Shown: one piece after another, positions 5,141 to 52,389 of the stretch
Position numbering within the stretch: the first letter of the stretch is position 1
Layout of the letters: the number at the start of each line of letters is the position of its first letter
DNA from: Azolla caroliniana
Lineage: Eukaryota > Plantae > Polypodiophyta
Assembly (NCBI GenBank): GCA_043228905.1
Contig: JBHGNT010000004.1
Span: 9,486,001 to 9,550,000 of the forward strand
Length of the DNA: 64,000 nucleotides
Reading direction: 5' to 3'
Notes under the pieces: model-generated
What the model saw: the letters and a program-made list of their open reading frames with translations, nothing else
Told to the model about the DNA's origin: nothing
Databases searched by the model: none
Translations under genes and position numbers: made by a program

Positions 5141-6046
5141 TGTCATGAATACATAAACATCATGGCTTCACCTGGGCTTGAACCCAAGACCTTGAAATAC
5201 ATAATCAAGAACCTAACCATTAAGATAACCTACGATCATATAAGATGATAAAAGCTACTTCTTATAATACACTGATTATGGTAAATACTCTGGAACATTC
5301 TAGAACATTCTATAGGAACCTATAAATATAGACATGTACAATTCTTCTCAAACCAATTCGAATCAACACCAGTCTTAAGCTCTCATCAGCTATCTCGTAT
5401 CCATTCTCATTCTATCTAATACATTCATTCTTCTCTTATCATTTCATTCCTCTCTTCTTGTGATCTCTTTATATCTTTCTTCTGTCACTCTATCTTTCTC
5501 TTGGTTTTGACAGTTTGATTCGAATTCATCTCTCTCTCCTTTATCCTCGTCTATAAACATCATGAAACCATGGTTGCCATCAACTTAGAAGAATATCTCA
5601 CCCTTGTTGCAAAAGTGGAGAATCTTAAATCCAAGTTTGCATCTCTTGCATTAGAGAATCAACGTCTTCTTGGATATCCACAAAAGGTTACTATGGAGAA
5701 ACAACAACAACAAGAGGAGTTTACATGACGGGTGCAACAATTAGAATCGACAATCGTAGTTTTACAACAACATAGGGTCGAACGTCAAGGAATTATCAAG
5801 GAGCCCAAAATCAGCCTCCCAACTAAATTTGAAGGTTCGAGGGGGAATTTCCGAGGTTTCTTGAATCAAGTGAGGTTGGTAATTCAAATGCATCCCACAC
5901 GTTATGCGACAGATGCATCACGAGTCGGGTTAGTGGGCACCTTATTGATTGGCATAGCGTTGTCATGGTTTTCTCCATTACTAGAGACAAACTCTCCTCT
6001 ACTGCATAGTTTCGAGGAGTTGAAAGCTTGCTTTCGAGATACAAAT
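5141..6046 (+). mobile_element. Chromovirus G: 5' LTR (5141-5512), self-priming PBS (5515-5526) and truncated gag
   Basis: LTR TGTCATGA...TTTTGACA with TATAAATA at 5321. Gag EPKISLPTKFEGSRGNFRGFLNQVRLVIQMHP is cut at 6046 by the LTR of H. Confidence 0.85.
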
Positions 6047-6525
6047 TGTCATGATATGGCAATACTCAAACCCATGACCTTATGTTACATGGGTCGAGCT
6101 CTTGACCATTAGACTATTTGCTGTAATACAAAGGATATTATTTTCATTTAAGTTTTACTATAGAAAATTGACATATATTCCAGATTTCTCTGGAACATTC
6201 TAGAAACTTCAGGAGTACTCCTGAGAAAACTATAAAAGGAGGTACAAGGAATTATTTCGAGCCAAATTGGTTCAACGCCAGTCTTAAGCCTCCTCCTAGC
6301 TACTATTGTATATTCTCTTAACATAATATATATCTTTTGTTATCATCATTCTCTCTCTCGATCTCTCGATCTCTCGATCTCACTCACTCTTTCCTTCTCT
6401 CGAGAGTTCTACACCTCCCTTAGTACTAATCCTCATCTTTTAGTACTAATTCTTTATGTGTCTTAGTACTGTTCTCTATCTTAGTACTGCTCCTAACAGT
6501 ACTTCTCTTAGTACTGCTCCTGACA
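6047..6525 (+). mobile_element. 5' LTR of chromovirus H
   Basis: TGTCATGA...CCTGACA, TATAAAA at 6231, repeated TAGTACT in U5. Homologous to 52094-52567 and, inverted, to 10763-11219. Confidence 0.92.
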
Positions 6526-8048: not shown

Positions 8049-8892
8049 TGTCGTGAAGATCCGTCACCACGTGCGGATCGTGAGGCGGAACCGCCGGGGT
8101 TCTGGATTGGAGGGACTCGAAGTTTGCACAAGCTTTAGCGAGAAAGGAATTAAGATAGATTCAGAGAGAGAGATTGAGATAAGATAGAACGATTGACTTT
8201 AGATTGAGAGAGATTAAGATTGAACTCTTGACTTTACATTTGAAGAACAAGATTGATACATCAATTGGATATTGAATTTCCTACTTTTAATTTATTGATT
8301 AATACATCAATTGGATAACAAATTTTCTTCTTAATATTAATTTTGATATAAAGTACAAAGCTCCCTTTGATATTTTTCATCCACCCTTTTATAGATGCTC
8401 CCATGCATATGATGCATGTGAGGTTACAAGACATGCATACAATGCATGGAATGCATGTGATGCATGTTTGTCATTTGGCGCTCATGCATCACATGTCATG
8501 AGATCGAGCTCTAATATGAGAATTGACATGTAAAGCTATAATAATAAAAATATAATACCTAAAGAAATGACTTGGCTTAATGGTAAGTCTATTATTTCCT
8601 ATCTTGGAGGTGTAAAGTTCGAGTTTTGCTTACATCTTTTTCTTTTATGCACAAAATACTATTAGGCTTTTGGACCAAATATCTTTGAGACACCATGCAC
8701 CGCGATCAACCGACCTGACCGATCCATCCAATTTGCATCCGTTTGTCCAGCCCAATCCGCATCCCGAGTCGCTTGCCGGTAACCGTCTGGTCGCCGGTTG
8801 CTGCCGGTTTTGGTTGGCCAAAAACTTTTACAAGTCACTTGCCAGTAACCGGCTGGTCGTTGCTTGCCGCCGGCTCACCGGTTCCATCGTCG
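8049..8892 (-). mobile_element. Truncated 3' LTR of Trp-primed element C
   Basis: Starts TGTCGTGAAGAT like 12745; 8193-8840 is homologous to about 47747-48420. Left flank CCGG. Confidence 0.8.
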
Positions 8893-10928: not shown

Positions 10929-11219
10929 GATAACTGATTATATATTATAAGAAGAGTAAGTACAAAAGGTTTATGAGGCTAAAGACTGGCGTTGAACCAA
11001 TTTGGTTCAAGATAATGCCTAGTGCCTCTTTTATAGTGTTCTCAGGAGTTATCTTGAAGCTTGTAGAATGTTCCAGAGAAATCTGGAATATACATTAATT
11101 TCCTATAATAAAATGTAAACGAAAATAATATCTTACGTATTACAATAGATGATATAATGGTCAGGAACTTGACCCATATAACCTAAGGTCATGGGTTCGA
11201 GTCTTGCCATATCATGAGA
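8893..11219 (-). mobile_element. Truncated H-family copy (H'): LTR 10763-11219, frameshifted gag 9541-10690, protease 9095-9540
   Basis: Gag is near-identical to H (CLYCGGPGHITINC); protease LLDSGANSCFMD; LTR contains (GA)n. The 3' part is deleted. Confidence 0.9.
10855..10924. repeat. (GA)n microsatellite in the H' LTR (copy at 26566-26635)
   Basis: Direct reading. Confidence 0.95.
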
Positions 11220-12842: not shown

Positions 12843-13215
12843 TGTCATGGACAAGTATAATAGAGTAGAACAAAGATAAGACTAGAGAATAAGAGAGAGT
12901 AAAAGAACAAGAACTCAACTTATAGAACCTGTAACTTGTGTTGTTCACCTTGATTAGAATCAAGGTGCACATGAGTATTTATACAAGAAGGTAGGTCTAT
13001 GTAAGCCATCTAGAAATAGAGTATGCATGAGGATGCATGCAAGCTAGAAAATGAGAATACATGCAAGCTAGGAACTTCGAATGTTCAATCTACACTATAT
13101 GAAGTTGAATTAAATGTAAGGATGCATATGTAGCTCAAGTGGTAGGGTTGCCCAATAGAGACCATGAGGTCTTGGGTTCCATCCCTACCTTCTTTCGTGG
13201 CATATGTCTATGACA
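12843..13215 (-). mobile_element. 3' LTR of chromovirus D (copy at 28554-28926)
   Basis: TGTCATGG...CTATGACA; adjacent PPT (AGAGGGAGGATAA on minus); matches 47511-47738. Confidence 0.9.
13124..13207 (+). ncRNA. tRNA-like pseudo-tRNA module in the D LTR (copy at 28835-28918)
   Basis: GCATATG-TA-GCTC-AAGTGGTA-GGGT...AGGTC-TTGGG-TTCCATC-CCTA...CATATGT gives an A box, D arm, T arm and possible acceptor stem; the anticodon arm is degenerate. Confidence 0.6.
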
Positions 13216-13722: not shown

Positions 13723-14163
13723 TATTATAGATCTAGGTACTAAAGTAAGATTAAGATAAGGATAAAGAAATGAAAGATAGAAAGGAGAAAGAGAAAGAAG
13801 GGTGCCGATCCACCCGACCACCCCCGAGCGAAGGGATCGAGACGGACTCGAGCCTCGATCGGCGTCCCAGACCACCGTCGTGGCGTCGAGTCGTACCTGG
13901 TGCTGGCGCGCTCGCTACAAGAGTTGACCCACCACACAAGCAGAGTCTTGATGTAGTCAAAAGATGATCAAATGAGGGTAGCTAGGCCTCTTATTTATAG
14001 CGAAACCCAAGGCCCCCAGGCAAGTTCACACTTGACCTAATGGGTTGTCTCAATCCCGAGGATTAAAAGTAATCCTCCCCTTCTTTACACTCTCATTTAA
14101 CCCTCACACTTATCCACGTGTATAGAATACTACGGTAAATTCTTACCACGGGATATTATATGG

Positions 14164-17100
14164 TCATGCCCGTAACATACTCCCCCTCTTTAAAACATTG
14201 CACTCTTGCAATGGAAAGTTAGGGAAGTTAGTTCTAAGAGTATTTTCGCGTTCCCATGTGGCATCTTTTATTGATTTATCCATCCATTTTATTTTGAATT
14301 CTCGGATTTCTTTAGTACGTAATTTTTTTGTTTTAACATCGAGAATTCTTTCTGGTACATGTGGTTTAGAAGATAATTCGTCAGAAGTAACCAGAGTTTC
14401 AGTCGTAACTGTATTGTCGCCAGAACCTACAAGTTCTTTTAGACGACTCACATGAAAGACTGGATGAATTCCGACACCATCGGGAAGAGCGAGACGATAG
14501 GCTGATGACCCAATGCGTTTGAGGACTGTAAAAGGTCCACAAAACCGTGGGGCTAACTTAGCGCACTTACCCGTAGACAATGTCTTAGAATTGTGAGGTA
14601 CACGTAAAAATACCTTCTGTCCAGGGTTGAATACACGAGGGTGCCTATGATGATCGGCATAAAAACGCGCTCTATCTTGAGCTGTTTTTATATTATCTCG
14701 TGCAATATGCAACATATCTTGCATATCCCGAAGAAAGTTTTGCGTACTTCGCAACTCATCATGATGTATATTAACATCAATCGGGGCTCGTGGCTGAAAA
14801 CCATACATCAACATAAAAGGACTATATCCCGTCGACGTATGCTTGGAGCTGTTATAAGCAAACTCCAAAATTGGGAGATAACGTTCCCATTTTGTTGGTT
14901 TTGCACCAACGTATGCTCGAAGCATGTCCTCAATAATTTGATTTACTCGTTCTGTCTGTCCATCGGATTGAGGATGATCCGTGGAGCTCATGCTCAACGT
15001 AGTTTCTAACTTCTTAAAGACTTGTGTCCAGAAGTCACTAGTAAACTTTGGATCTCGATCACTCACGATATCCATCGGTAACCCATAAAAACAAAACAAT
15101 TCGTCAACGAATTGGTAAGCCAATTCAAGAGCTGTTACCGTGGTTTTAGTAGCAATAAATCTGGCCATTTTAGTTAGTCGATCAACGACAACCCAGATGG
15201 CATCATGACCTTTTTGGGTGCGAGGAAGGCTAACAATAAAATCCATGGATATACTTTCCCACTTATTATTGGGAATGTCCAAGGGATGTAAAAGTCCTGC
15301 GGCTTTAAGTCGCTCGGCTTTGTTAACCTGGCACTGGTGACATTTAGTCACATAGCTATGTATGTCAGGACGCATCTTAGGCCAATAAAATTGAGTGGAG
15401 ATGAGAACGAGTGTACGATGTATTCTAGGGTGCCCTGCTGAGGGTGCATCATGGCATTCAAAAAGAATCCTCTTTTTGACCTCGGGTAAATCTGGAACAC
15501 AAACCTTCCCATTACGGTAGAGCAAACCGTTAGCAATGTGGAAGTATTCCTTCAAGGATGTGGTGGTGTCTGTTCCAGACTCAACTCTAGCCCAATATTT
15601 TGCGAAATAACTGTCATCAGGATACTTTCCTCGAAGGTGATCATAAAGATCTGATGATATTGCAGTGAAGCTAAGCATGTTAACTTCACGGATGCGACTT
15701 AGTGCATCAGCGACAGTGTTCATGGAACCTTTACGATATCGTATGGAAAAATCAAAGTCCTGGATGAGATCAGCCCATCGTGCCTTACGACCTTTCAGGT
15801 CTTGTTGGTCACAAAAATATTTCAAGGACTCGTGGTCCGTAGTTACCACAAAGTGATTTCCATAAAGATAATGGCGCCATGTTTTGAGCGCATGTATAAC
15901 TGCAAATAATTCCTTTTCTTGAACGGTATACCGACATTGAGCAGAATCAAGTTTCTTACTCTCGAATGCTATTGGTTTACCATCTTGATACAAGACAACA
16001 CCTATAGCATAATCGCTTGCATCGGTTTCAACCTCAAAAGGTTTTGAAGGATCGGGTAAAAGAAGTGAAGGAGCCTTGCAAACCAGGTCCTTGAGTTCCT
16101 TAAAGGCAAGGTCTAGTGTAGCATTCCACACAATAGGTTTTGTAGACTTACGCGTTTGACCTTTTAAAAGATCAGTAAACGGCGTCGTCAATTGGGAGTA
16201 ATTACGAAGAGACTTTCGCAAAAACCCCACAAAACCAAGGAATGATCGAACTTCTCGAATATTCCGAAGAGTGGGCCAGAGCTTGATTTTCTCAATGCGA
16301 GAAGGATCAATTTCAACTCCTCGTTCGGTTATGAGATGTCCTAGATAAGTAATTGATTTCTTGAAGAACTCACATTTTGAGATCTTCGCATAAAACTGTT
16401 TGTCACGCAATGTTTGTAAAACAAAGCGGACATGTCTAGCATGTTCTTGTAATGTACGGCTATAAACTAAAATATCATCCAAGAAAATAACGACAAATTT
16501 TCCAAGTTGTTCTCGGAAAATGTCATTCATTTCTTGTTGAAAAGTAGCCGGAGCATTGGTCAAACCAAAAGGCATAACCAAAAACTCGTAATGGCCATAG
16601 CGCGTACGAAATGCCGTTTTAGGAACATCGTCCTCACTTATTCGTATTTGATGGTAGCCAGTACGGAGATCAAGTTTCGTAAAATACCGAGCTCCCTGGA
16701 GACGGTCAATTAGATCGTCAGCCCGAGGCAATGGATACGAATTCTTGATCGTCACTTTATTCAAGCGTCGGTAATTAATACACATACGCCATGTGCCCTC
16801 TTTCTTTTTAACCAAGAGAACTGGTGCACCCCATGGAGATTTACTATAACGTATATAACCCATTCGTAAATAGTCCTTGAGTTGCTTAGATACCTCATCT
16901 TCTTCGGATCGACTTAAGCGATACGGAGGTATACTTATTGGTGCAACACCGGGTACAATATCTATACGATGGTCTATATTACGTTTAGGGGGTAACCCAT
17001 TAGGTAGTTCACTTGGAAAAACATCATGAAAATCATTTAAGATTTCATCAAGTTGTTGTTGTTCAAAATATGTTAATTGAATCGGGACATTATCGATATT

Positions 17101-18597
17101 GTAAACGTGAATGTCCGGATCAAGTACACAATAAAATAACGTAGAACAAGACAACTCGGATATTGATGGACATGAGGAAACAATCGAGAGGGATTGTTTT
17201 TTTACACATTGAATAAAATGCGTACAATCGTTTAGTACAAAAGAAATGGAATGACGAACCCAATCAATAAATAAAGAAGAGTTTTTATTATAAAACCAGG
17301 GATAACCCAGTATTACATCGGTGGTACAAAGATTCATTACATGGAAGTCTACTTCCTCTATATAAGTATCAATAGAAATTCCTAATGAATGAATCGCCTC
17401 GTTGATGTATTGTACTCTTCCATCAGCCAAGTGCACCGTGTAGGTGTGATCACTTACGGTGGGTTGGATTCCCCATATCTGAACCAAACGATCATTCACA
17501 AAATTGTGTGAGCTTCCCGAATCAAATAAAAACTGTACGGGAGATCCATTGATATACCCGTTTGCACGTAGTAAATCATTGGGACCCAATACATAGTGAG
17601 GGAAAGAACATTGACAATTACTTAAATGATGTGTATAGACCTGAAGGACATTAGGAATCTGACCTTTATGGTCTGCAGCTTTAGCTTTGTTGTCGTGCTC
17701 TTTCCGTTGGAGCTTTCGACATTGATCTTTTGTATGACCCTTCTTTTTGCAGAATACACAAAAAGGATGTTGTCGCTTACAATCGCGATCCAGGAATTTG
17801 TTGGGTGTCTTGCGTTTCCCAACAAATTGCGACTGCTTAGTCCCGGGCGCTTCGTTGGGTTTGTTATGGTCCTTCTTCGAAGTGCGTTGATAGCGAAGAA
17901 CTATTTCAACGGCCTCTTCGAAGGATTTTGGATCCTTATCGTGCACTATCCAGTGATAGTCCGAATTGGGGATGCCATTGACAAAACAAGCTATCAACCA
18001 ATTGTCCCCTTCTAGACCCGATTTTTGGATTTGGGTTCTAGCATGGTGAACATAGTCTTCTAGCGAGGAAAATTTCCTGCTAGAGAGGTTCATTAAAGCT
18101 TGTGCTGCCTCGGTTCGAGAGGGAGGTTGCAGAAATTGGCCCTTAAAAACCGTGACAAAATCTGTCCAGGTATCGGGCAATTTCCCCATAGTACGGAGGC
18201 CACGCCACCAGGCGGCGGCCTTACCCCCGAGTTCTCGACCGACATATGCAATCTTCGTACTATCTGGCGTGGGATAGAGCTCAAAATGAGACTCCCATCG
18301 TCCCAGCCATGTGCAGATTGCTTCTTCGGTTCTTTCCTTTTTGTCTCCCGTAAATGGCTTAACGACAAATGATGGTTCACCTTGTCGCTCATCAGGTCTA
18401 TTAGTCTCACGTTGTAGACTAATGACACGTGCCTCAAGAGCACTCTGAGATTGCCGAAGTTCGGTCATCTGTTGAGCGGTGAAACTAAGGTATTGGGTTA
18501 TTTGTGCCAAATACATCTCAGTGGACATTTGTCCAGGAGGATTCCCTTGAGTTCCTTCCGCTTGAGCGGATGACATCGGGTTGTTAATTTGAGCCAT
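14164..18597 (-). CDS. Single-ORF Gag-Pol polyprotein (1477 aa): gag-CCHC, protease, RT, RNase H, integrase, chromodomain
   Basis: [50 protein letters not shown] and PERILD...IKW...ATWE. Confidence 0.97.
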
Positions 18598-19777
18598 TAA
18601 AGATTATTTCTGGAAAAGAAATAGGATAAGGTCAGAGATATAGTCATAACATCATGTCGTGATGTAAACATATCATGGGCGAGCATTAATCGATATCATT
18701 ATCTCACGTCAATACCCCTCTAGACGTATGAGATGAGGTTCAAGATCAGGTTACTATGGTAACACAAAGGTGTTTTAAAAACCATGGGGGTGACAAATAA
18801 ATGTCTTTCCCTGATCTCTATATCGATTTTTTCATGGTGGCTCCCCGAGGCTCAACCATGTATGTTCGCGTCATGAATAGTTTATACACGAAAAAAATGT
18901 TAACAATAAACTATGTTTCGGTGCCCACATAAGTGGTTTCGGCTCTTTAAGTCCTATTACGAGGACCCCGAGGTGCACTTAGACCTTAAGTCTAAACATG
19001 TGTTATAGTCATATGTATCAAGGATGTTGTATGGTCTTTGTCATATTTGAACTCGAGACCTCGAGAACAAATACATTAAACACTTGAGCCAACCAAGTAA
19101 GTTGCTCTTCTCGAATGCTTAATGTTTGATGCGTATAAGAGATATGCGAGGCAATTGATCATATATGTTTTTTTAAAAGAACATATATGTCAAGGGTCCT
19201 TATTGCGCCCTCATTTACCAAAACTATGTTGGTACGTTACCTAACCTCAAGTCTCGTAATTACGATGGCATACGCCAAAGTGCAACCTAATGGTCAAGCC
19301 AAATGAGCCCTTGTTTCGTAGTAGGCTCACGTGGGCCATCACATGGTCACGTCATTACGAATGCCTCTCATAAGAACGAGCTCATGGTGGCATCGTATCC
19401 ATGTAACGAGGGAGGGATGTTGGATACGTGCGTCATTGGAGCGACCTCACTTGAAGTGGGTCAAGCCCTACGTACTCAACATCATTTTGGCTATTCGCGT
19501 TTCTTTACGTAACGAAATCGAGGTCGTCAACGGGGTTATCAACAATAAAAAAAATGTTGAAAAAGGGATGGTGACAACACCATTCTCACAAAAATGTGAG
19601 GACGGCCACCAACATCCTTTTCCCGATAAGGACAACTTTCGATATAATCACGTAATAACGAATATAAACATATGTTTACTTATCACATATATACGATCAA
19701 ATACGTATATATGTGACCACATATGCCTATATTAAACATATCGTTATATTAAATAGCCACAAATGATGTGATCGAGA

Positions 19778-20035
19778 TACGTAATCGAGGTATATACCTC
19801 TACGCACACGAAACATCCACAAATAAGAAATCATCGTAATACGCAATGGAGGTATTGACCTCTTACGCATACGAGACCAAACGCATATCGTTTACAGCAA
19901 ATCAAGGTATTAAACTCATACGCAAACGTAACATATGTTCGTGAACGTAATACGTAATTGAGGTATTAACCTCGTACGCATACGACACTCATCACATATT
20001 ATCAATATGTCAAACGAGGTATTGACCTCATGCAC
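19778..20035 (-). repeat. Array of five ~56-bp-spaced hairpin repeats in the E 5' leader (copy at 35489-35746)
   Basis: Cores GAGGTAT(A/T)(T/G/A)ACCTC (third one degenerate) at 19787, 19849, 19904, 19960 and 20016. Confidence 0.85.
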
Positions 20036-20741
20036 ATATGTAAACGTTTTAGATAATCAATTAAAGACCACTACAACATCATTGACTTAATGAAAAAAAT
20101 TACATATAAACTAAACACATGATTAGATGGGAGAAGAGAGAATAGAAAGAAAAATTATGGAAAGAGTTACCGAAGTTCTTTGTTGATCGTTGTCTGGATC
20201 AAGGCCAACCGCACAACGATCGATCAGCATCAATCAAAAGACAAATGAAAAACAAAGAAACATTAGTACAAAAATCTGATACCAAATATTATAGATCTAG
20301 GTACTAAAGTAAGCTTAAGATAAGGATAAAGAAATGAAAGATAGAAAGGAGAAAGAGAAAGAAGGGTGCCGATCCACCCGACCACCCCCGAGCGAAGGGA
20401 TCGAGACGGACTCGAGCCTCGATCGGCGTCCCATACCACCGTCGTGGCGTCGAGTCGTACCTGGTGCTGGCGCGCTCGCTACAAGAGTTGACCCACCACA
20501 TGAACAGAGTCTCGATGTAGTCAAAAGATGATCAAATGAGGGTAGCTAGGCCTCTTATTTATAGCGAAACCCAAGGCCCCCAGGCAAGTTCACACTTGAC
20601 CTAATGGGTTGTCTCAATCCCGAGGATTAAAAGTAATCCTCCCCTTCTTTACACTCTCATTTAACCCTCACACTTATCCACGTGTATAGAATACTACGGT
20701 AAATTCTTACCACGGGATATTATATGGTCATGCCCGTAACA

Positions 20742-21615
20742 TTTATACTGTTTGCCAATGGCACGGAGCTCGAGGGCGAGTTCACGATGAACATCTTGTA
20801 AGGTGTGGGCATGCTTCTCGGCCGACGGATTGATGGATATCGCCGGAATGGAAATGTTGAACCGAGGGTGGAAACCGTAATTTGCAAAGAATGGAGAAAC
20901 CTTAGTTGAGGCATGGATACTGTTATTGTAGGCAAATTCCGCCATGGCAAGGAGGTCCACCCAATCGTCTTGTTGGTAGCTAACTATACACCGGAGGTAT
21001 TGTTTGAGGATTTGGTTGACTCTTTCGGTTTGACCATCCATTTGAGGGTGGTGTGTGGTTGAAAAGTTCATAGAAGTCCCGAATGTGAAGTCGGCGCCAA
21101 AAGTGGGAGATAAATTGAGGACCTCGATCAGAAGTGACATCCTCAAGCAAACCGTATAACCAGACGACATTTTTCTAGAAAAAGGGTAGCTGTCTCCTCC
21201 CCCAAAATGGTTTTCGAATATGGGACAAAGAAAGCCATCTTTGAAAACCGATCAACGACCACTAGCACTGTCTCATTGTCACCGACTTGAGGAAGGTCGG
21301 TGATAAAGTCCATGGAGAGAGAAGCCCAAGGTCAATTGGGGATTGGAAGTGGGTGTAGAAGGTCGTATGGACGATGGTGAGCCGCTTTGGAGCGAGCACA
21401 GATGTCACAAGTTTTGATAAATTCTTTGACCAATTTCCAAGGTTGAGGCCACCAAAACCCTCGAGAAAGCAATGCCAACGTTTTGGCGACCCCAAAGTGT
21501 CCGACACAAGGATCATCATGGCGAGTTTGTAGAACTCGGAGGCGATATGGGCCAGCTGGTACTTAAAGGAGGTGATTACGATAGAGTGGCCCATCTTGAG
21601 TTCTAAAGTGACTGA
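20742..21615 (-). pseudogene. D integrase core (copy at 36453-37326)
   Basis: [22 protein letters not shown]...AEFAYNNS, frameshifted. Confidence 0.9.
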
Positions 21616-22044: not shown

Positions 22045-22751
22045 TGTCGTGATGTGGCATGTCTAGTGCGAGAAAAACTCAAAAATTGAGGATCCACACA
22101 CATTTCACGAATACTTGTAAAAATGAAAATAAATAAACCTAGGTCACAATGGCATTGAGTGCATGTAGAGGGTTGCAAGTAAGATTTGAACCTTGCACCT
22201 CTACGGTAAGAGGCAATTACCTTACCACTAAAGCTACTACTAAGCGCTTTAGATGTTCTATATTTCTTTCTCATATTCAGTATTCCGTAGGAAACAAACG
22301 AACAAAACCGTGTACACAAAACCACGGTTTTAAGCCCATGGTTTCCTGCATGTCACAAAGCAAAACTGTGTGCACAAAAACCATGGCTCCAAGCCCATGG
22401 TTTTGTGCATGGACAAACCTATAAAACCCCTAGTACGGCTTGTGTAAGGGGGGGCTCAATATGATATGACCATCATCATCACCATCAATAATATAAGCTT
22501 CTATTTCTTCTTCTTCGCATCTATCTTGTAATTATTTATCTACTTCTTAAAGTGTACAATCTTCAATCTTCTCAAGTGTAATAGTTCTTCCTCCAATCTT
22601 ACATTCACATCATCCTCTTCTCAATACCTTGACGGACATCCTCCTTGGTCCAAGACCCCGGTGGTCCCGCTCAAGCGAAGCACGCTCGCACGCGCATCTT
22701 CGCGACATCATTTGGTGAACCCGATGTGAAGAGTAGTAGGGGAGGACGAAG

Positions 22752-24894: not shown

Positions 24895-25952
24895 ACTCGA
24901 AGTGGAAGACGAAGTCGACGAGCGTGTAGAGGAACTCGGTTGATCACCGTTGCCAAAGATCTCACCTCTTCACCTTTCTCGGCACATACCGGAGGATGTG
25001 CGGGTTTGGTGGGGGTGGATGTCGTGACGATTTTCGGCTACGGTGTGAAACCGAGTGAGACGAATAAACCAAGGATGTGCAACATTGCACATACACTTAG
25101 CAAATAAGCCTCCTAAGGCCTAGTGGCACTTGAGTTCATACAGAGGGGTGCAAGCAAGGATTGAACCTTGCACCTCTAAGATACAAGATAATTGCATTAC
25201 CACTAGGACAACTATCATATAGTGTAGATTTTATGTATTTCCTTTTCATATACAAATTATAGACGAAACAACCATAGAAAACCATGTGCACAAAACCATG
25301 GTTTTAAACCCATGGTTTGTGCATGACATAAGCAAAACCGTGTGCACAAAACCATGGTTTTAGCCCATGGTTATGTTCGTCTTTATCTTCTTCATATTTT
25401 TCTACTTCTCAAGTGTACAATCTTTCTTCTTCTCAAGTAAACCAATTTCATCTAATCTTTCATTGATCATCATCTAGCGTCGATAATTCCGCGAACGTCC
25501 TCCCCAGTCCAAGACCCCGGTGGTCGCTCGAGTAGCACACGCACGCGCGAATCTTCGCGACATCATTTGGTGAACCCGACGTGAAGAGCGGTAGGCGAGG
25601 ATGAAGCTGGACGAGGAATATCTAATGAAGGCAATGTCAAAGATGATGATAGATTTTTCAAGAGAAGGGAAAACACGACATGCGGCCCAACAAGCCGTCG
25701 AAAGCATGATCAAGCGAGTCGGGTTTTTCGATGGAGGCAAAGTCCAAAAATTTCTAAAGGCCTACAATGCCGAAATGGATTCAAGAGGAGTGGAGGAAAC
25801 AATGAGGCTGGAGTACTTTTGTCAAGTGGTGGCCGAACCGATCTTCGAAGAGATTAAAGAGATTCAAAAAACTCACGATTCGTGGGTGTCCTTCAAAGAA
25901 GCTTTACAAGAATCATATGGTTACGAACAGCAAAAGGGACGGGGTCTGTATG

Positions 25953-26639: not shown

Positions 26640-26930
26640 GATAACTGATTATATATTATAAGAAGAGTAAGTACAAAAGGTTTATGAGGCTAAAGACTGG
26701 CGTTGAACCAATTTGGTTCAAGATAATGCCTAGTGCCTCTTTTATAGTGTTCTCAGGAGTTATCTTGAAGCTTGTAGAATGTTCCAGAGAAATCTGGAAT
26801 ATACATTAATTTCCTATAATAAAATGTAAACGAAAATAATATCTTACGTATTACAATAGATGATATAATGGTCAGGAACTTGACCCATATAACCTAAGGT
26901 CATGGGTTCGAGTCTTGCCATATCATGAGA
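25953..26930 (-). mobile_element. Duplicated piece of H' (5' gag and LTR 26474-26930)
   Basis: Matches 10242-11219. Confidence 0.92.
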
Positions 26931-29433
26931 ACAATCCTTTATTATGCTTCTCTCTTCGCCGCATGTATTAGTTTCGACCTTCGGTTCTTCACCATCACCT
27001 CCCGTCTCTTGGGTCTTACATTGGTTCTCGGACGTAATTGCCCAAGTCTCTGGAACAAGTGTGGAGAAAATTTGGCCGTCGTCATTGGTTGTATTATCTT
27101 GGTCCTTCTCTTCCTTTTTGCCACCATCCGTCTCTTGGGTCTCACGTTGGTTCCCAGACGCAACTACCCAAGTCTCTAGATGAAATGTTAGGAAAGTCTC
27201 CACATGACCATCCGCCATCGGCTCGTTCATAGCCATCTCTGACTCGATGTCGTTTTTCGTGGCTATCTCTTCAATCTCATGGGCCTCGCACCCATTGACC
27301 CTCTTGATCGATCAAGCTTCGATTATCCTTCTCTCTTCGTCGCATGTATTCTTTTCGACCTTCCGTCTCTTGGTTCTCACGTTGGTTCTTTGACTCAACT
27401 GCCCAAGTCTCTGGAACATGTGTGGAGAAAATCTGGCCATGGTCGTTGTCGACGCTTGTGGTCTTGTTCATAGTCACCTCCTCAATGTCCTTTTTAGCGG
27501 CTAGATCCTCAATTACACTAACCTCGGACTCTTTATCTCCATTGATGCAAGCTTCGATTAGGCTTGCTTCTTCATCATCCAATGTTTCGAACACGACGCG
27601 CGTTCTGAAACATTCATCCTCCCTCTAAGTGGCCTTCTCCATCCCCGAGTCATCATCAATCTTCTTTTCATGTAGGTTGCTTTGTTTAGACACCTCAACT
27701 TCTTTAGGTGTTCTTGATTTTTCTATGCTTGGTCTTACAAAGTCAATATCATCAAGCCATTAATGACTCATGTCGATCTTGTTGCATGCTTGCTTCACCG
27801 CAACCCAGTCCGCTACAAGCCCGTTCGCTTGGGTATAATCTTCGAGGAGAGTCCCCAACTCTCTCCTATCCTTCATTTCCACAGCTTTCAAGAAGTACAA
27901 AGTCTTGTCCTCCTCAACTAGCACTTGGTCCATGGCTGGGAGACGACGAAACATTTGGTCGAACTCATCGTACACCCTCGAGGCGCGCATCTTCTTATTT
28001 TTCTTCTCTAACCACCTCATCAAGGTATGTCGAGTCATCCTCGACAAATCTTCCATCGAGAACTCTGCTAATATTGATCTTTCAAACTCTGACCACGTTG
28101 TCTTGCCTTCTTGAAGCTCGATGACACGTTTTTGGATGTTGTTGACAACAACTCTCTTGAAGCTTGCGATTTGACGTGCTTCAGACACGTCCCTTTGATT
28201 CATCTCCCTTCTATATGCGTCAAGGACCTTCGTAATGTTCCTTCCGTCAAATTGAACCTCGAGCTCAATGATACAGTCGACAGCCTTCTCCACGCTCGCA
28301 TCGTTGTCTCGAGATCTCATCATTTGTTCGAAGATTATCATCATCCTTTCGAACTCTCCCGCTTGATTGCTTGAGGACGCCATCTCCAAGTATTGGTCGA
28401 TCCTCGACTTGATCCTTCCTACCACCTCTTTCACGTCGGGTTCACCACTTAATTATGTCGTGAAGATCCGTCACTACGTGTGGATCGTGAGGTGGAACCG
28501 TCGAGGTTCGAAACCAGAAGGACTCGAAGTTTGCACAAGCTTTAGCGAGAAAGTGTCATGGACAAGTATAATAGAGTAGAACAAAGATAAGACTAGAGAA
28601 TAAGAGAGAGTAAAAGAACAAGAACTCAACTTATAGAACCTGTAACTTGTGTTGTTCACCTTGATTAGAATCAAGGTGCACATGAGTATTTATACAAGAA
28701 GGTAGGTCTATGTAAGCCATCTAGAAATAGAGTATGCATGAGGATGCATGCAAGCTAGAAAATGAGAATACATGCAAGCTAGGAACTTCGAATGTTCAAT
28801 CTACACTATATGAAGTTGAATTAAATGTAAGGATGCATATGTAGCTCAAGTGGTAGGGTTGCCCAATAGAGACCATGAGGTCTTGGGTTCCATCCCTACC
28901 TTCTTTCGTGGCATATGTCTATGACATTATCCTCCCTCTAAGGCCGCCTCCTAACACCTGCCACCGGTTTATGGGGGTATCGTTGATGAAAAGCGCGAAT
29001 TGCCTCCGGTGCATTTTGTAAATGTGTAATTGGTTCCCATGTGGCGTCCGAAAGAGGGTAACCTTTCCATAAGACCAGGTATTGAAGACTGCTCGACGCA
29101 AGCGAGAGTCGAGGATCCAGTCAACCTCATACTCCTCACCTGTCGATAATTCCACGGGCGGCGGCGGAGGAGGTTGTCGTCCCGAAATGTGAGAAGGATG
29201 ATAGAGTTCGAGGAGAGAGACGTGGAAAACATTGTGAAGCCGAAATGTGGGGGGAAGCGATAACCGGAAAGCGACTGGGTTAACACGCTCGAGGATACAG
29301 AATGGGCCTAGCTTTTAGTAGTCAAGCTTCGCACAGGGATGGGTGGTTGCGATGTGCCGACGTAGCAATCAAACCATGTCACCAACTGTGAAGGTCGGCA
29401 CGACTAAGCGATGTTGGTCAACGTGAGCTTTAT

Positions 29434-37755: not shown

Positions 37756-40700
37756 TGTCGTGATGTGGCATGTCTAGTGCGAGAAAAACTCAAAAATTGA
37801 GGATCCACACACATTTCACGAATACTTGTAAAAATGAAAATAAATAAACCTAGGTCACAATGGCATTGAGTGCATGTAGAGGGTTGCAAGTAAGATTTGA
37901 ACCTTGCACCTCTACGGTAAGAGGCAATTACCTTACCACTAAAGCTACTACTAAGCGCTTTAGATGTTCTATATTTCTTTCTCATATTCAGTATTCCGTA
38001 GGAAACAAACGAACAAAACCGTGTACACAAAACCACGGTTTTAAGCCCATGGTTTCCTGCATGTCACAAAGCAAAACTGTGTGCACAAAAACCATGGCTC
38101 CAAGCCCATGGTTTTGTGCATGGACAAACCTATAAAACCCCTAGTACGGCTTGTGTAAGGGGGGGCTCAATATGATATGACCATCATCATCACCATCAAT
38201 AATATAAGCTTCTATTTCTTCTTCTTCGCATCTATCTTGTAATTATTTATCTACTTCTTAAAGTGTACAATCTTCAATCTTCTCAAGTGTAATAGTTCTT
38301 CCTCCAATCTTACATTCACATCATCCTCTTCTCAATACCTTGACGGACATCCTCCTTGGTCCAAGACCCCGGTGGTCCCGCTCAAGCGAAGCACGCTCGC
38401 ACGCGCATCTTCGCGACATCATTTGGTGAACCCGATGTGAAGAGTAGTAGGGGAGGACGAAGATGGATGGCGAATATCTCATGGAGGCAATGTCAAAAAG
38501 GATGATGGAGTTTCTGAGAGAAGGGAAAAGAAGAAATGAAGCCCAACAAGCCGTCGACAAGGTAGTCGAACGAATGAGCTATTTCAACGGTGCCGAAGTC
38601 CAAAGTTTCCTAAAAGTCTACAATGCGGAGATGGATTCAAGAGGTGTGGACAAAGCTATGAGGCTAGAGTACTTTTGTCGGGTGGTGTCTCAACCGATCT
38701 TCAAAGATGTAAAAGAGCTTCTAGAAGCTCATGATTCGTGGGCGACTTTCGAGAAGGCTCTATTGGAGGAATATGGCTATGAGAGACTGAAGGGACGAGA
38801 TCGACGCAACTTCGACCAATGGGTGACATCAGCGAAGACCCACCAAGGTGCGACACAAGCATTCGTAGACTTCGAGCATCATTTTTCTCAATTGTCGGAG
38901 CGGGAACAAAGATTGGTGGGGGTCGATAAGGTCCTTATGTTCGTGAAGTCAATCGATCGAATGGAAAGGATGGCGATCGGCCTCAAACTCGAAGAAGATG
39001 ATGGTGCAAATGGCCTCATCGAGGATTGGAGCAAAGTGGAAAGTGTATGCCGACTACACGATAAGGGGAAAGCGAGAATATCGACGACAACAAGACGGCC
39101 CATGAGGGACGATCGAAGAGGGACGAGATGCAACAACGCGCCACCAACAAAAGAAATGAAGCTTAGAAGGGAGACAAAACCGAGGCGAATGGTGATCGAG
39201 GAAGAAGAGACCTCCCAACAAATGCGGGTTAATGAAGTGGCCGATACAAAGGCTCTGGTTCGGTATGACGGTACCGAGAGAGAAGGTGTGAAACAAGTCA
39301 CCTTCTTGTCTTACAAAGAAACGACGGCGAAGGAGGAGGCCGATGACTCGAGGACGGCGAACGCCACTTCGAGGGAGGATAAATGTTTCGGAACACGCAT
39401 TGTGTACGAAACATCGGGTGATGACGGCGCAAGCATGAGAAAAGCTTGCATGATCGAGGGAGAAAAAGTGTTTGAGTCTGAAGAGATTGAGGAGGTAGCC
39501 ATGACAAACGACATCGAGTCGGAGGTGGCTATGGACGAGTCGACAACGGATAGCCATGTCAAGACTTCTCCACGATTGTTCCAGAGACTTCGGCGGTTGC
39601 GCCCGTGTGCCAACGTGAGACCAGAGAGACGGAAGGTGGTGACGGGAAGATAAAGGCCCAACACAAAGAGGAAGAAGATCGAGGAAGAAAGGATATCCCC
39701 ACACCTATTCTAGAGACTTCGGCGGTTGTGCACGTGCGCCAACGTGAGACCGGAGAGACAGAATGTGTGGACAAAAAAGAGGACGACTGGAAGGGCGATG
39801 AAGAAGACAAGGTAAATGTAAATGAACGAAGGGATTCCTTCACACTGGTTCCGGAGACTTCGGCAGTCGAGACCGTGTGTCGACATAAGACCGAAGATAA
39901 AGGAGGTGGCGAAGAGGAGACAATATGGCTCGAGGCGAGCATACACGGAGGGAAGGATATGGCCGACGTGGAGGCCAAGGATGAAGCTACGGTTGAGTTC
40001 GATGGAGAGGTTGCATGCGGGAAGGAAGGAAGAGTCGAGAACCGGTTGAACCGGAAGATGATCCGGCCGGGATTCCGACCCGAACGAAGGAAGATCCACA
40101 TGGGAGCCGATCGACCGGGGCCGACCCGGCCGAAACCTGATTCGGCGAAAATCGATCGGACGATTCCGATCCAAAAGGGGGCCGACCCAGCCAGAATCAA
40201 TCGGTCGAGCCCGACTCGGGGAAATGTGAATGCAGACGAAGGCCAACCAAGCCAAGAAGCGATCGGTGGAGACCGATCCGGACAAGGGCAAACCCAGCCT
40301 AATCGGAGATCGACACGAACGATCTACAATACCCAGTTGAAGACGGTGAGCGTGAGGAGTGGCCAGGAGTCCAATCGAAGGACACGCGCCGTGGACGAAG
40401 GAAGAGCGGTCGTATCGATCTACTACAACCGATCGGGGAAGAAGGTGTGAGCACCGGATATGGTGGATCGGGTGGCTACGGTGGTTCGGTTGGAAAGATT
40501 GCGCATCGTTCGGTAGATCTACTACAACCGATCGGGGAAGAAGGTGTGAGCACCGGATATGGTGGATCGGGTGGCTACGGTGGTTCGGTTGGAAAGATTG
40601 CGCATACTCGAAGTGGAAGACGAAGTCGACGAGCGTGTAGAGGAACTCGGTTGATCACCGTTGCCAAAGATCTCACCTCTTCACCTTTCTCGGCACATAC

Positions 40701-43700
40701 CGGAGGATGTGCGGGTTTGGTGGGGGTGGATGTCGTGACGATTTTCGGCTACGGTGTGAAACCGAGTGAGACGAATAAACCAAGGATGTGCAACATTGCA
40801 CATACACTTAGCAAATAAGCCTCCTAAGGCCTAGTGGCACTTGAGTTCATACAGAGGGGTGCAAGCAAGGATTGAACCTTGCACCTCTAAGATACAAGAT
40901 AATTGCATTACCACTAGGACAACTATCATATAGTGTAGATTTTATGTATTTCCTTTTCATATACAAATTATAGACGAAACAACCATAGAAAACCATGTGC
41001 ACAAAACCATGGTTTTAAACCCATGGTTTGTGCATGACATAAGCAAAACCGTGTGCACAAAACCATGGTTTTAGCCCATGGTTATGTTCGTCTTTATCTT
41101 CTTCATATTTTTCTACTTCTCAAGTGTACAATCTTTCTTCTTCTCAAGTAAACCAATTTCATCTAATCTTTCATTGATCATCATCTAGCGTCGATAATTC
41201 CGCGAACGTCCTCCCCAGTCCAAGACCCCGGTGGTCGCTCGAGTAGCACACGCACGCGCGAATCTTCGCGACATCATTTGGTGAACCCGACGTGAAGAGC
41301 GGTAGGCGAGGATGAAGCTGGACGAGGAATATCTAATGAAGGCAATGTCAAAGATGATGATAGATTTTTCAAGAGAAGGGAAAACACGACATGCGGCCCA
41401 ACAAGCCGTCGAAAGCATGATCAAGCGAGTCGGGTTTTTCGATGGAGGCAAAGTCCAAAAATTTCTAAAGGCCTACAATGCCGAAATGGATTCAAGAGGA
41501 GTGGAGGAAACAATGAGGCTGGAGTACTTTTGTCAAGTGGTGGCCGAACCGATCTTCGAAGAGATTAAAGAGATTCAAAAAACTCACGATTCGTGGGTGT
41601 CCTTCAAAGAAGCTTTACAAGAATCATATGGTTACGAACAGCAAAAGGGACGGGGTCTGTATGAGTTTCACGAATGGGTGTCATCGAGAAAGACCCACCA
41701 GAGTGCTATGCATGCATTCGTTGAGTTTGAGTATCGCTTCGCTCAACTCTCGGACCGGGATCGAAGATTGGTGGGGGTGAATAAAGTTCTGATGTTTGTA
41801 AAGTCAATCGATCGGAATGAAAGGAAGGCCATTGGAATCCAACTTGAGGATGACAATGGTGAAAATGGCCTCACTGAGGATTGGGCCAAAGTGGAAAGGG
41901 TATGCCGACAACACGATAAGAGGGAGATGAGACTCTCATCGACAACAACACGACCCACAAGGGATGTTCAAAGGAGAATGGGATGTGGCAATAAAAACCC
42001 ACTGAAGGAAGAAAGCTCGAAGAGGGAAGCTTCAAAAGAACTCAACATAGAAGACTTGATGAGAGAGGCATTAATGAACTTAAAGGCACAAGTCGAGGTT
42101 GAAGAGAAGCTGAAAACAAAACCGAGGAAAATGGTGATCGACGAAGAGAAGACCTCCCGACAAATGCAGACTAATGGTGCGGCCAATACGAAGGCCCAGG
42201 TTTGGTATGACAGTACCATGGGAGAAGGTGTGAAACAAGCCACCTTCTCGACTTATGGAGGAACGACGGTCGAGAGAAGGGCCGAAGACTCGAGAGCAGG
42301 AAATGCTGCTTTAAGAGTGGACGAGCATTTCAGAACACATGTTGTGTCCGAAATATCGAGTAATGAAGGTGCAAGCATGAGGGAAGCTTGCGTGATCAAG
42401 GGATGTAAAGAGTGCGAGGTCGACATGATTGAGGCGGTAGCCACGAGAAACGACATCAAGTCGCAGATGGCTAAGGAAGAGTTCACGGCGGATGACCGTG
42501 TCGAGACTTTCCCAACACTTGATCTAGAGACTTGGGCAGTTGCGTCCGAGAGCCAACATGAGACCCAAGAGACGGAAAGTGGTGGGGAAGAAAATATTGA
42601 AGACAATGCGAATAACAACATTGAGCGAAAGATGGCTACGGATGAGAAGACGGTGACCGATGGTGTCGAGGTTCTCCCCACATTTCTTCCTGAGACTTCG
42701 GCAGTTGTGCCCAAGTGTCAACATGAGACCGGAGAAATGGAAGGTGACGGCAAGAAATCAAAGGACCAAAGTGGCAATGAGGACGATGACCACAGACGAA
42801 GGGATCCCTCCACACTAGTTCCGAAGACTTCGGCAGTTGTGCCCGAGAGCCAACATCAGACCGGAGAGATGGAAGGTGGCAGCGAGGAGATGAGGGTCGA
42901 AGCCGGCGCATACAAAGGAACGGGTGCCAACAAGGAGGCCAAAAACAAAGCTACAATAGAGTTCGATGAAGAGCCAAAGAGCGGCAAGAAAGGAAGAAAC
43001 GGAATACAATCCGGATGGAAGATGACTCCGTTGGTATTCCGACCCGAACGGAAACCGACCTGGGCGAGAGTTGATCAACCAGGCCCGACCCAACTGAAAA
43101 CCGGACAGAAACTAACCCGAACGAAAGTCGATCATCTAAGTCCGATTCGGCCGAATGCGAATCCGAACGAAGGCCGACCAAGCTAGAAGTTGATTGGTCG
43201 AGACCAATCCCGACAGAAGTTGAGCCGGCCTAGACAGAGGTCGAAGCAAACGAGCCGCGACATCCAGTCGAGGCTGTTGAGCATAAGGAAAGGCAAGCAT
43301 AAGACGAGAAAGGATGATAAAGGAAAGTTAAGTGACCAAGGAGATGGCCGAGATGAAGGTGGAACATGCACGAGGCATGAAGCGTTATGCTCGGGAGGAG
43401 CACAGAGAGCCATGACAACTAGACATGGCAATAAAAAAGGTGAGCGAATGATATGGTGGATCGGATGGCAACGGCAGTTTGAAGTAGACGACAAAAAGAC
43501 GGTGCAGACGAGGCACAAGAAAGGAGGAAATCAAACACCAACCACCTTTGACCCTTCCACATCACTCTTTTCTTCTTGGCACATACCGGAGGATGTGCGG
43601 TTTGGTGGGGGTGGATGTCGTGATGTGGCATGTCTAGTGCGAGAAAAACTCAAAAATTGAGGATCCACACACATTTCACGAATACTTGTAAAAATGAAAA

Positions 43701-47746: not shown

Positions 47747-48808
47747 TTGACTTTAGATTGAGAGAGATTAAGATTGAACTCTTGACTTTACATTTGAAGA
47801 ACAAGATTGATACATCAATTGGATATCGAATTTCTTACTTTTAATTTCTTAATTAATACATCAATTGGATAACGAAATTTCTTCTTAATATTAATTTTGA
47901 TATAAAGTACAAAGCTCACTTTGATATTTTTCATCCACCCTTTTATAGATGCTCCCATGCATATGATGCATGCAAGGGTACAAGACATGCATACAATACA
48001 TGGAATGCATGTGATGCATGTTTGTCATTTGGCGCTCATGCATCACATGTCACTCAATCAAGCTCTAATATGAGAATTTACATGTAAATCTATAATGATA
48101 AAAATATAATCTCTAAAGAAATGACTTGGCTTAATGGTAAGTCTATTGTTTCCTATCTTGGAGGTGCAAAGTTTGAGTTTTGCTTACAACTTTTTCTTTT
48201 ATGCACAAAATACTATTAGGCTTTTGGACCAAATATCTTTAAGACACCATGCACCGCGATCAACTGACCCGACCAATCCGTCCGATTTACATCTGTTTGG
48301 TCCGGCCCAGTCCACATCCTGATTTCATTTGGTCCTCATCCCTAGTCGCTTGCCGGTAACCGGCCGGTCACTACTTGTCGATCGCCAGTTGCCGCCGGTT
48401 TTGGTTGGCTAAAATCTTTTACAAGTAGCTAGGCCACACCTACTTATCCAACTAGCTTAGTTCAAGTCACCTTGAACTCTCTATGCTCCACACATAAACA
48501 CAAAGATGATAGCTTTTGCTCTGCCTTATATATGGCGAGATCCTTATTTGTCCTATCTATGTGGGATATCTCATAGTTTTATCTTTCTCTTTTCCTTTGC
48601 AAACTTCCTACCCACATAACTTGAGACTTATATGTCTGTTTCTTATGTAGTAAAGTGCATTCGAAAGCTCTTAAAGACCTCCATCTTTTTGTACTAAGAT
48701 ATTAAACTATTTTAAATAGTATTTTGACTATTATTGTTTTATATGATTCATACTCGATTTCGTATGTTTTATGCGATTTTCAAACCATTGTAGAAAATCT
48801 TCACGACA
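47747..48808 (-). mobile_element. Remainder of the C 5' LTR
   Basis: Homologous to 8193-8840; ends TCTTCACGACA, the inverted repeat of TGTCGTGAAGA; right flank CTAG versus left CCGG. Confidence 0.85.
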
Positions 48809-52093: not shown

Positions 52094-52389
52094 TTTCATG
52101 ATATGGCAAGACTCGAACCCATGACCTTACGTTACATGGGTCGAGCTCTTGACCATTAGACTATTTGTTGTAATACAAAAAGTATTATTTTCATTTAAGT
52201 TTTACTATAGAAAATTGATGTATATTCCAGATTTCTCTAGAACATTCTAGAAACTTCAGGAGTACTCCTAAGAACACTATAAAAGGAGGCACAAAGCATT
52301 ATTTCGAACCAAATCGGTTCAACACCAGTGTTAAGCCTCCTAGCTACTATTGTATATTCTCTTAACATAATATATATCTTTTGTTATCA

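What the first reader, a model, noticed from the sequence alone, without database searches (positions are those of the whole stretch)
13124..13207. Antisense tRNA-like (Pol III A/B-box) modules in the U3 of five different LTR types
Seen: read antisense to each element, the LTRs carry tRNA-shaped segments. D (13124-13207): TAGCTCAAGTGGTAG...GGTTCCATCCC. H (about 6058-6118, 11150-11208, 52105-52165): TAGTCTAATGGTCAAGAGC...AGGTCATGGGTTCGAGTC. G (about 5165-5228): TAATGGTTAGG...AGGTCTTGGGTTCAAGCCC. A (about 22175-22238): TAGCTTTAGTGGTAAG...GGTTCAAATC. B (about 25150-25210): TAGTGGTAA...GCAAGGTTCAATCCTTGC. Box spacing is tRNA-like, anticodon arms are degenerate, and all lie upstream of the LTR TATA/R region pointing outward. 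Known: A/B boxes recruit TFIIIC; tDNAs can act as chromatin barriers; Cassandra TRIMs carry 5S-derived LTR sequence, and tRNA-like LTR sequence has been reported in non-coding TRIMs. Inference: self-priming chromoviruses (which need no tRNA primer) and an unrelated Trp-primed lineage keep the same module, suggesting a selected role as insulator, anti-silencing element or outward Pol III promoter.
Basis: partly seen in the sequence, partly recalled or inferred. Interest (0 to 1): 0.82.

Follow-up and report, generated by a model that had tools for sequence, protein, structure and literature searches.

The report
Backward tRNA promoter in moss retrotransposons
Many protein-coding jumping genes of a likely moss host keep a backward-facing, tRNA-gene-like stretch near the outer end of their terminal repeats; mainly the bases that the RNA polymerase III factor TFIIIC reads in yeast are preserved, so it likely works as a TFIIIC binding site that would shield the element's own promoter from silencing.

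Summary
Observation confirmed and wider than reported. The window is a nest of Ty3/gypsy LTR elements. Six LTR types (the five named plus F) carry a tRNA-shaped module in U3, antisense to the element. Two types (C, Copia) lack it. Models trained only on unrelated tRNAs find it (A2 E 1.6e-5, D E 0.0095). ARAGORN and Rfam find no tRNA. Of 53 related Tcn1-like 3' LTRs found by a protein anchor, 20 carry it (0 in sense), 6 carry remnants, and 27 lack it (24 are one family). Ten carriers have intact pol frames. Between families with near-random synonymous sites (0.31), tRNA positions 44-48 are 0.88 identical and the B box 0.75. The A box is 0.41 and the anticodon arm 0.28. There is no cloverleaf covariation, no conserved terminator and no match to the primer tRNA. 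This pattern resembles the yeast TFIIIC tauB footprint, including bases 44-47. Best reading: a selected TFIIIC site, probably a barrier for the element's Pol II promoter. Binding and function are untested. It differs from Helenus (non-coding, sense, whole tRNA). New variant of a known kind.

The parts
13124..13196 (+). D module (tRNA positions about 1-73), antisense in U3 of the D 3' LTR; A box 13131-13142, AGGT 13167-13170, B box 13175-13185
12843..13215 (-). D 3' LTR of a self-primed Tcn1-like chromovirus, preceded by a PPT and a frameshifted chromodomain end
5162..5234 (-). G module, in G 5' LTR 5141-5512 (+)
6050..6123 (-). H1 module (B box decayed, C56T), in 5' LTR 6047-6525 (+)
52097..52169 (-). 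H3 module, in 3' LTR 52095-52567 (+) of the same element as H1
11142..11216 (+). H2 module, in the 5' LTR of a second H element (-)
22170..22242 (-). A1 module, in 5' LTR 22045-22707 (+) of a Trp-primed Phygy-like element (TSD ACGG)
43741..43813 (-). A2 module, in 3' LTR 43616-44278 (+) of the same element
25146..25217 (-). B module, in LTR 25020-25562 (+), an internal LTR of the tandem A-B-A structure
8565..8637 (+). F1 module (sixth LTR type, Trp-primed, TSD CCGG/CTAG), in the 3' LTR ending at 8049 (-)
48119..48191 (+). F2 module (B box decayed, C56T), in the F 5' LTR that starts at 48811 (-)
26853..26927 (+). Copy of the H2 module in the 15.7-kb tandem duplication
28835..28907 (+). Copy of the D module in the tandem duplication
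37881..37953 (-). Copy of the A1 module in the tandem duplication
40857..40928 (-). Copy of the B module in the tandem duplication
13723..20742 (-). Element C (intact 1479-aa chromovirus polyprotein, two LTRs): internal negative control, no module

Best explanation
The module is a tRNA-gene-like DNA stretch kept by selection in the U3 of protein-coding LTR retrotransposons, antisense to the element, and it likely serves as a binding site for the host factor TFIIIC that would act as a barrier protecting the element's own Pol II enhancer and TATA box from silent chromatin. Shown here: it lies inside both LTRs, so it is copied with the element. It is always antisense and lies between the LTR 5' end and the TATA. 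It is conserved at positions 44-47, 53-58 and 61 and at A14, T17, G18 and G19, at tRNA spacing, while stems and anticodon arm drift. Taken from yeast work: these are largely the bases that TFIIIC reads, and TFIIIC sites alone can be barriers. Inferred: TFIIIC binds in the moss nucleus. The antisense orientation would put any TFIIIB on the element's own AT-rich U3 tract and send any polymerase III away from the Pol II start. The benefit would be staying expressible after landing in heterochromatic nests such as this window.
For: Purifying selection: in 50 family pairs under 60% aa identity (of 105 pairs among 15 elements), four-fold sites are 0.31 identical (0.28 expected), the flank equals its shuffle (0.49 vs 0.49), the anticodon arm is 0.28, positions 44-48 are 0.88 and the B box 0.75. 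In 19 non-redundant carriers A44, G45, T47, G53, T54, T55 and A58 are invariant, G46 0.95, C56 0.89, A14 and T17 0.89, with G18-G53 spacing 33-36. A44 is not favoured by the scoring matrix. Position 57 varies freely between G and A (14 and 14 of 35), while C56T (6 of 35) includes single decayed copies such as H1 and L038. Sequence is kept, not structure: 52.6% paired vs 52.2% in shuffles, covariation reached by 179 of 500 shuffles, no consensus fold. PMC11724288 (section 26, part of 29): tauB makes base-specific contacts in the B box and one upstream of it, G45A changes TFIIIC binding 5-fold, +44 to +47 affect transcription, and A-box mutation barely affects binding. That is the hierarchy seen here. 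ETC sites act as barriers and insulators in yeast (PMC3395662 passages). Orientation and position are fixed: 30 of 32 distinct hits in 506,614 bases are antisense in an LTR U3. Heat-shock-element-like or RY-like repeats lie between module and TATA in most carriers (motif names recalled). Within families, the listed variants avoid the boxes: none of 40 listed rows falls at 43756-43772 or 43792-43815 in A (27 more hidden), and D reads restore the canonical base.
Against: There are no binding, chromatin or expression data. The module is dispensable: C (intact ORF, LTRs 98.7% alike), the Copia LTR, one 24-member family, L001, L020 and L031 lack it. One family (L058/L080, intact pol) appears to have fixed C56T, and only 2 of the 6 weak loci keep AGGT. 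Carriers were chosen with a matrix that includes these positions, and G18G19 served as the anchor, so the per-position figures are inflated. The TFIIIC contacts are from yeast. Methylated, clustered tRNA genes are silent in Arabidopsis (PMC7544208, abstract only), so TFIIIC may be excluded from methylated LTRs. The barrier step is not separated by any result here from other TFIIIC-dependent benefits.
Confidence: 0.5

Rival explanations
1. The module is a working antisense Pol III promoter and the transcript, or the act of transcription, is what matters: a short outward RNA, a hairpin small-RNA precursor, or antisense RNA over the PPT and integrase end from the 3' LTR.
For: A-box G18G19, A14 and T17 and the A-B spacing are kept. 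The tract at -40 to -20 is 78% AT. Foamy viruses carry Pol III miRNA cassettes in their LTRs (PMC3993851 passages). H-type modules fold into a long hairpin (H3 z -5.9).
Against: The first T4 lies 10-1204 nt from G53. CAA at -8 to -1 occurs in 2 of 19 and TATA at -40 to -24 in at most 6 of 19, whereas plant tRNA genes have both (PMC3082873 passages). The A-box 5' half is loose (0.41 between distant families). Only 5 of 19 modules fold with z below -2, and the H hairpin shows only weak covariation (14 of 500 shuffles, related rows; no RNAalifold consensus).
Confidence: 0.17
2. It is a TFIIIC site used in integration: it tethers the cDNA end to Pol III machinery or a nuclear compartment, or it is a landing pad for Ty3-like elements.
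For: In Tcn1-like LTRs G53 lies only 15-49 nt from the U3 end. Unchecked notes from another genome report insertions upstream of LTR-borne tRNA boxes (a lead only).
Against: In A and B the module is 146-201 nt from the end, and in F about 640 nt. LTR pairs in the window align without interruption through the 100 nt upstream of each module, so none of the nested insertions mapped here sits there.
Confidence: 0.12
3. It works in the genomic RNA, where U3 is the complement of a tRNA: it pairs with a host tRNA to help strand transfer or packaging, as proposed for HIV-1 U3-R.
For: The conserved bases are the tRNA loop positions, and U3 is present at the RNA 3' end. The precedent was seen only as a reference-list title (Piekna-Przybylska 2010); its content is recalled.
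Against: Most carriers studied are self-primed. In Trp-primed A, B and F the module matches the primer tRNA 3' end at 4 of 14 positions. Conserved blocks are short and separated by freely varying stems, which does not give extended pairing with one tRNA.
Confidence: 0.07
4. It is a neutral relic of old SINE or tRNA insertions into ancestral LTRs, or a site for some Pol II factor that happens to resemble the boxes.
For: Several families lost it without visible cost. SINE insertion into an LTR is the origin proposed for Helenus. Selecting carriers by score is partly circular.
Against: Loci were fetched by a protein motif, not by the module. Near-invariant blocks persist where synonymous sites and neighbouring bases are at chance level. 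Two blocks 35 nt apart keep tRNA spacing in two lineages, which a single-site Pol II factor would not need.
Confidence: 0.14

Closest known systems
Helenus / TRIMp3 (Kojima 2024, PMC10886601; read parts 1-4 of 6, passages, and the supplement passage with Helenus-1_SMo)
   Same: tRNA-derived sequence in both LTRs, conservation centred on boxes A and B, not a functional tRNA; one plant family (Selaginella) is known.
   Different: Helenus are 311-1263 bp non-coding TRIMs. In the LTRs seen in the supplement passage the tRNA part is in sense and looks near-complete. The paper expects autonomous partners to use Pol II and not to share such LTR sequence. Here the carriers are gag-pol elements with their own TATA, the module is antisense, and the stems are lost. 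The paper does remark that 'not a few' Repbase LTRs resemble part of a tRNA, without analysing them.
Cassandra TRIM (5S-derived Pol III promoter; as described in PMC10886601)
   Same: A Pol III-type internal promoter carried in a plant LTR.
   Different: 5S type, non-coding, and drives the element's own transcription; the module here points away from the element's transcript.
ETC sites and tDNA barriers of yeast (PMC3395662 passages); TFIIIC-tRNA gene structure (PMC11724288)
   Same: B-box-dominated conservation, with barrier or insulator activity from TFIIIC binding.
   Different: Those are fixed host sites with a 3' extension of the B box. Here the extra conserved bases are 5' (44-47), part of the A box is kept, and the site is mobile.
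B2 SINE chromatin boundaries in mouse (PMC8136502 passages)
   Same: A tRNA-derived mobile sequence at chromatin boundaries, with divergent Pol II/Pol III arrangement proposed.
   Different: B2 is a free SINE affecting host genes; here the module is a fixed part of an LTR and would serve the element itself.
Foamy-virus LTR Pol III miRNA cassettes (PMC3993851 passages)
   Same: A/B boxes inside the LTR of an autonomous retroelement.
   Different: Those have terminators and hairpins and make miRNAs; neither terminator nor fold is conserved here.

Membership tests
Functional tRNA gene | Cloverleaf with paired stems and an anticodon loop | tested here: not met
   ARAGORN 0 in window and in 60 of 60 loci; Rfam none; acceptor 42% and anticodon stem 40% paired, no covariation
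Helenus / TRIMp3 | tRNA-derived A and B boxes within both LTRs | tested here: met
   H1/H3, A1/A2 and both LTRs of L074
Helenus / TRIMp3 | Short non-coding TRIM | tested here: not met
   10 of 20 carrier loci have stop-free pol frames of 868-1282 aa with YxDD
Helenus / TRIMp3 | Promoter oriented to transcribe the element (sense) | tested here: not met
   0 of 65 LTRs score in sense, 29 of 65 in antisense; Helenus-1_SMo is sense
Type II Pol III transcription unit | A and B boxes at tRNA spacing | tested here: met
   G18-G53 spacing 33-36 in 19 of 19 carriers; A-box 5' half loose
Type II Pol III transcription unit | Plant upstream TATA and CAA, and a nearby T-run terminator | tested here: not met
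Type II Pol III transcription unit | Pol III transcript | not testable with these tools
   Only contig-level runs were offered; no strand or start information
TFIIIC barrier (ETC-like) | Conserved B box with TFIIIC-contacted bases | tested here: met
TFIIIC barrier (ETC-like) | TFIIIC occupancy and barrier activity | not testable with these tools
   Needs ChIP and reporter assays
Host elements G, H, D: Tcn1 chromovirus | Chromodomain integrase and self-priming instead of a tRNA PBS | tested here: met
   definition from PMC6317226. No RT tree against reference Tcn1 elements was built.
Host elements A, B, F: Phygy non-chromovirus | tRNA-Trp PBS and 4-bp NCGN TSD | tested here: met
   definition from the PMC6317226 supplement. 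The Trp label of the PBS is recalled. The gag-like ORF has relatives in Physcomitrium, Riccia and Adiantum.
Host elements A, B, F: Phygy non-chromovirus | Placement by RT-RH-INT phylogeny | tested here: inconclusive
   These copies have no pol, and a search for longer relatives found none

The most novel reading that the evidence does not exclude
Two deeply separate Ty3/gypsy lineages of mosses independently captured a tRNA gene promoter, turned it backwards at the outer end of U3, and pared it down to a TFIIIC footprint. Every new insertion would bring its own host-factor chromatin barrier, a portable insulator that lets heterochromatin-targeting retrotransposons stay expressible and seeds very many TFIIIC sites through the genome.
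Probability: 0.35. Interest if true: 0.85.

Novelty: new variant of a known kind. Interest (0 to 1): 0.66.

Why it matters
How chromodomain retrotransposons that land in silent chromatin remain expressible is an open question. A conserved TFIIIC-type site at the LTR edge gives a specific, mutable candidate. It can be tested by reporter knock-in in a gene-targetable moss, if model-moss LTRs carry it. It would also be a rare handle on non-transcriptional TFIIIC function in plants. It extends tRNA-derived LTR sequence from non-coding TRIMs to autonomous elements, in the opposite orientation.

Tried and rejected
No whole genome is held. ARAGORN and Rfam find no tRNA in the window or in 60 of 60 loci, so no host tRNA set was available. 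The parent isotype was not tested; a likeness of D-type modules to a plant tRNA-Ala 5' end is from recall only. Three protein scans of viral contigs found no relatives. No RNA holder is listed on record; seven runs are only guessed to be RNA, and all runs are contigs, so none was laid for expression. This is no evidence either way. A cloverleaf or any shared fold was rejected. The H-subclade hairpin is inconclusive. Complementarity to the Trp primer was rejected. A tRNA gene as integration target, not part of the LTR, was rejected because the module follows PPT plus TG and occurs in both LTRs. A recent swap between lineages is not supported: a profile from 22 Tcn1 rows finds A only at E 0.02-0.04, B 0.17, F1 1.9. 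Antisense T4 runs in the integrase end are fewer in carriers than in non-carriers (1.35 vs 3.5 per stretch), but 24 of 27 non-carriers are one family, so this was not used. The first protein search used element C, which lacks the module, and did not help. No outside relatives of the A, B and F LTRs were obtained except contig variants. Print searches that found no report of this module in autonomous moss elements. The library lacks most subscription journals and Repbase entries, which may mention it. The REXdb supplements held as text were small and were searched only for 'Phygy'.

Full report
Setting. The window is a nest of LTR retrotransposons. G, H and D have chromodomain-type integrase relatives and no tRNA PBS. 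The sequence behind the 5' LTR is complementary to the LTR just downstream of the TATA (12 nt in G and D, 7 nt exact in decayed H1), as described for the self-priming Tcn1 clade of mosses and club-mosses (PMC6317226 passages). A, B and F have a PBS recalled as tRNA-Trp type and 4-bp TSDs ACGG and CCGG/CTAG. This matches Phygy (Trp 81%, NCGN; supplement row). These copies hold only a gag-like ORF, with relatives in Physcomitrium, Riccia and Adiantum. A moss host is therefore likely (inference). C is an intact chromovirus, and there are Copia remnants. A 15.7-kb stretch is duplicated at 99.97%.

The observation. A relaxed A/B scan found the five reported modules, and reading showed a sixth type, F. 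The module is part of the LTR: it follows PPT plus TG in 3' LTRs and is in both LTRs of H1/H3, A1/A2 and L074. It is not a tRNA. For an independent test I took 391 ARAGORN tRNAs from viral contigs (272 distinct) and built a PWM and two Infernal models from them. The PWM scores 9 of 12 window LTR copies at 15-34 bits antisense and none in sense. The misses are F2 (decayed and cut by the scanned range), C and Copia. Shuffles reached 8.7 at most. The covariance model ranks A2, B, A1 and D at the top of the window (E 1.6e-5 to 0.0095). It is weak for F1, H2, G and H3 (E 0.12-6.4), and palindromic stretches in the A and B LTRs score as well as those. The sequence-only model scores A, D and H higher than the structured one, and B lower.

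Relatives. One metagenome scan anchored on an integrase motif, not on the module, gave 123 loci with 118 distinct matches. Of these, 53 had a callable 3' LTR with at least 110 nt; 65 were dropped for too little sequence or no LTR call, and two of those (L053, L074) later showed modules. Of the 53, 20 score 14 bits or more antisense, 6 keep remnants, and 27 have none. On a tree of the integrase end, carriers fill both deep subclades. Non-carriers are one 24-member family plus L001, L020 and L031, needing 3 changes of the 'none' label; the root is midpoint only, so the order of gains and losses is not fixed. Ten of 20 carriers have stop-free pol frames of 868-1282 aa. In 506,614 bases scanned on both strands, 30 of 32 distinct hits are antisense in an LTR U3; the other two are homologous sites inside the L008 pol.

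What is conserved. In 19 carriers under 80% alike, A44, G45, T47, G53, T54, T55 and A58 are invariant, G46 is 0.95, and C56, A14 and T17 are 0.89. G18G19 was the anchor, and spacing is 33-36. Among 15 Tcn1-like elements (105 pairs), the 50 pairs under 60% aa identity have four-fold sites at 0.31 (0.28 expected), flank at shuffle level, anticodon arm 0.28, 3' tail 0.38, A box 0.41, B box 0.75 and positions 44-48 0.88. Across the two lineages (48 pairs) the values are A 0.60, 44-48 0.80, B 0.72, anticodon arm 0.26. Selecting carriers by score inflates these figures, and only 2 of 6 weak loci keep AGGT. Contigs of four public runs show that the D family has A at 13180 (99% or more of depth). In A, none of the 40 listed variants falls at positions 43-59 or 1-23, with 27 more rows hidden.

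What is not conserved. Cloverleaf pairing equals its shuffles (52.6% vs 52.2%), and no consensus fold is predicted. H-type modules fold into a long hairpin (z -5.9), but only 5 of 19 modules reach z below -2, and covariation in 16 related rows is weak. There is no fixed terminator (10-1204 nt to the first T4) and no positioned CAA or TATA, although the upstream tract is 78% AT. The module matches the primer tRNA end at 4-5 of 14 positions.

Mechanism. Kept sequence without kept structure points to a DNA-binding site (inference). In the yeast structure paper (PMC11724288, section 26 and part of 29) tauB reads the B box and a base upstream of it. That paper cites a 5-fold binding effect of G45A and effects of +44 to +47, and finds that A-box mutation barely alters binding. 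The modules show the same ranking. TFIIIC sites can be barriers without transcription (PMC3395662 passages). The module sits between the LTR edge and heat-shock-element-like or RY-like repeats and the TATA (motif names recalled). Antisense orientation would place TFIIIB on element DNA and direct polymerase III away from the Pol II start (inference). I put a TFIIIC barrier or anti-silencing role at 0.5, and TFIIIC binding of any purpose at about 0.8. Against it: several active-looking families lack the module, one family appears to have fixed C56T, methylated tRNA gene clusters are silent in Arabidopsis (abstract only), and nothing here measures binding or chromatin.

Comparison and novelty. 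Helenus TRIMs carry tRNA-like LTRs, but are non-coding and, in the supplement passage seen, in sense. That paper expects autonomous partners not to share such sequence, while remarking that many Repbase LTRs resemble part of a tRNA. Foamy-virus LTRs carry transcribed Pol III miRNA cassettes. B2 SINEs mark boundaries. Seven searches found no report of an antisense, conserved tRNA-type module in autonomous moss elements. Passages of the Tcn1 and Physcomitrium TE papers do not mention it. The library omits most subscription journals. Unchecked notes from this scan describe tRNA boxes in chromovirus LTRs of a probable gut fungus; I did not test them, and saw no landing-pad insertions here. Verdict: real, selected, a new variant of a known kind, function inferred; interest 0.66.

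Noticed in passing
window 10242-25956 and 25953-41667: 15.7-kb tandem duplication at 99.97% identity: a very recent duplication or an assembly artefact; it doubles several modules.
   Followed up: no
window 22045-44278: Tandem A-LTR / internal / B-LTR / internal / A-LTR structure with one TSD, suggesting template switching between two Trp-primed families. The B LTR lacks about 108 nt that hold A's TATA. L008 is a similar tandem with halves 84% alike.
   Followed up: partly
window 52097-52170 (-); L025, L011, L016, L021, L034: In the H subclade, tRNA positions about 22-37 are complementary to positions 48-62 and form a long hairpin with a few apparent compensatory changes; covariation is inconclusive.
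   Followed up: yes
window 5290-5310 and 6190-6210; L004, L008, L026: Arrays of TTCnnGAA/GAAnnTTC (heat-shock-element-like, name recalled) between module and TATA in many Tcn1-like LTRs, and CATGCA repeats (RY-like, name recalled) in D, F and others.
   Followed up: partly
L008 1003-1049 and 6323-6393 (-): A/B-box-like hits antisense inside the protease-RT linker of both halves of a G-type element (PWM 18 and 22 bits; profile E 0.004 and 0.04): chance or a second site.
   Followed up: no
window 22740-24940, 41306-43600, 11220-12740: Trp-primed A, B and F carry a gag-like ORF followed by a repeat-rich, acidic stretch and no pol, so they look like non-autonomous Phygy derivatives.
   Followed up: partly
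window 6260-6275 and 52310-52325: The H self-primer itself reads like a B-box core in sense; G's does partly and D's does not, so this is probably coincidence.
   Followed up: no
L057, L060, L071: Related families that keep the B box, as close as 15-38 nt to the LTR end, but have lost a recognisable A box: candidates for a B-box-only state.
   Followed up: partly
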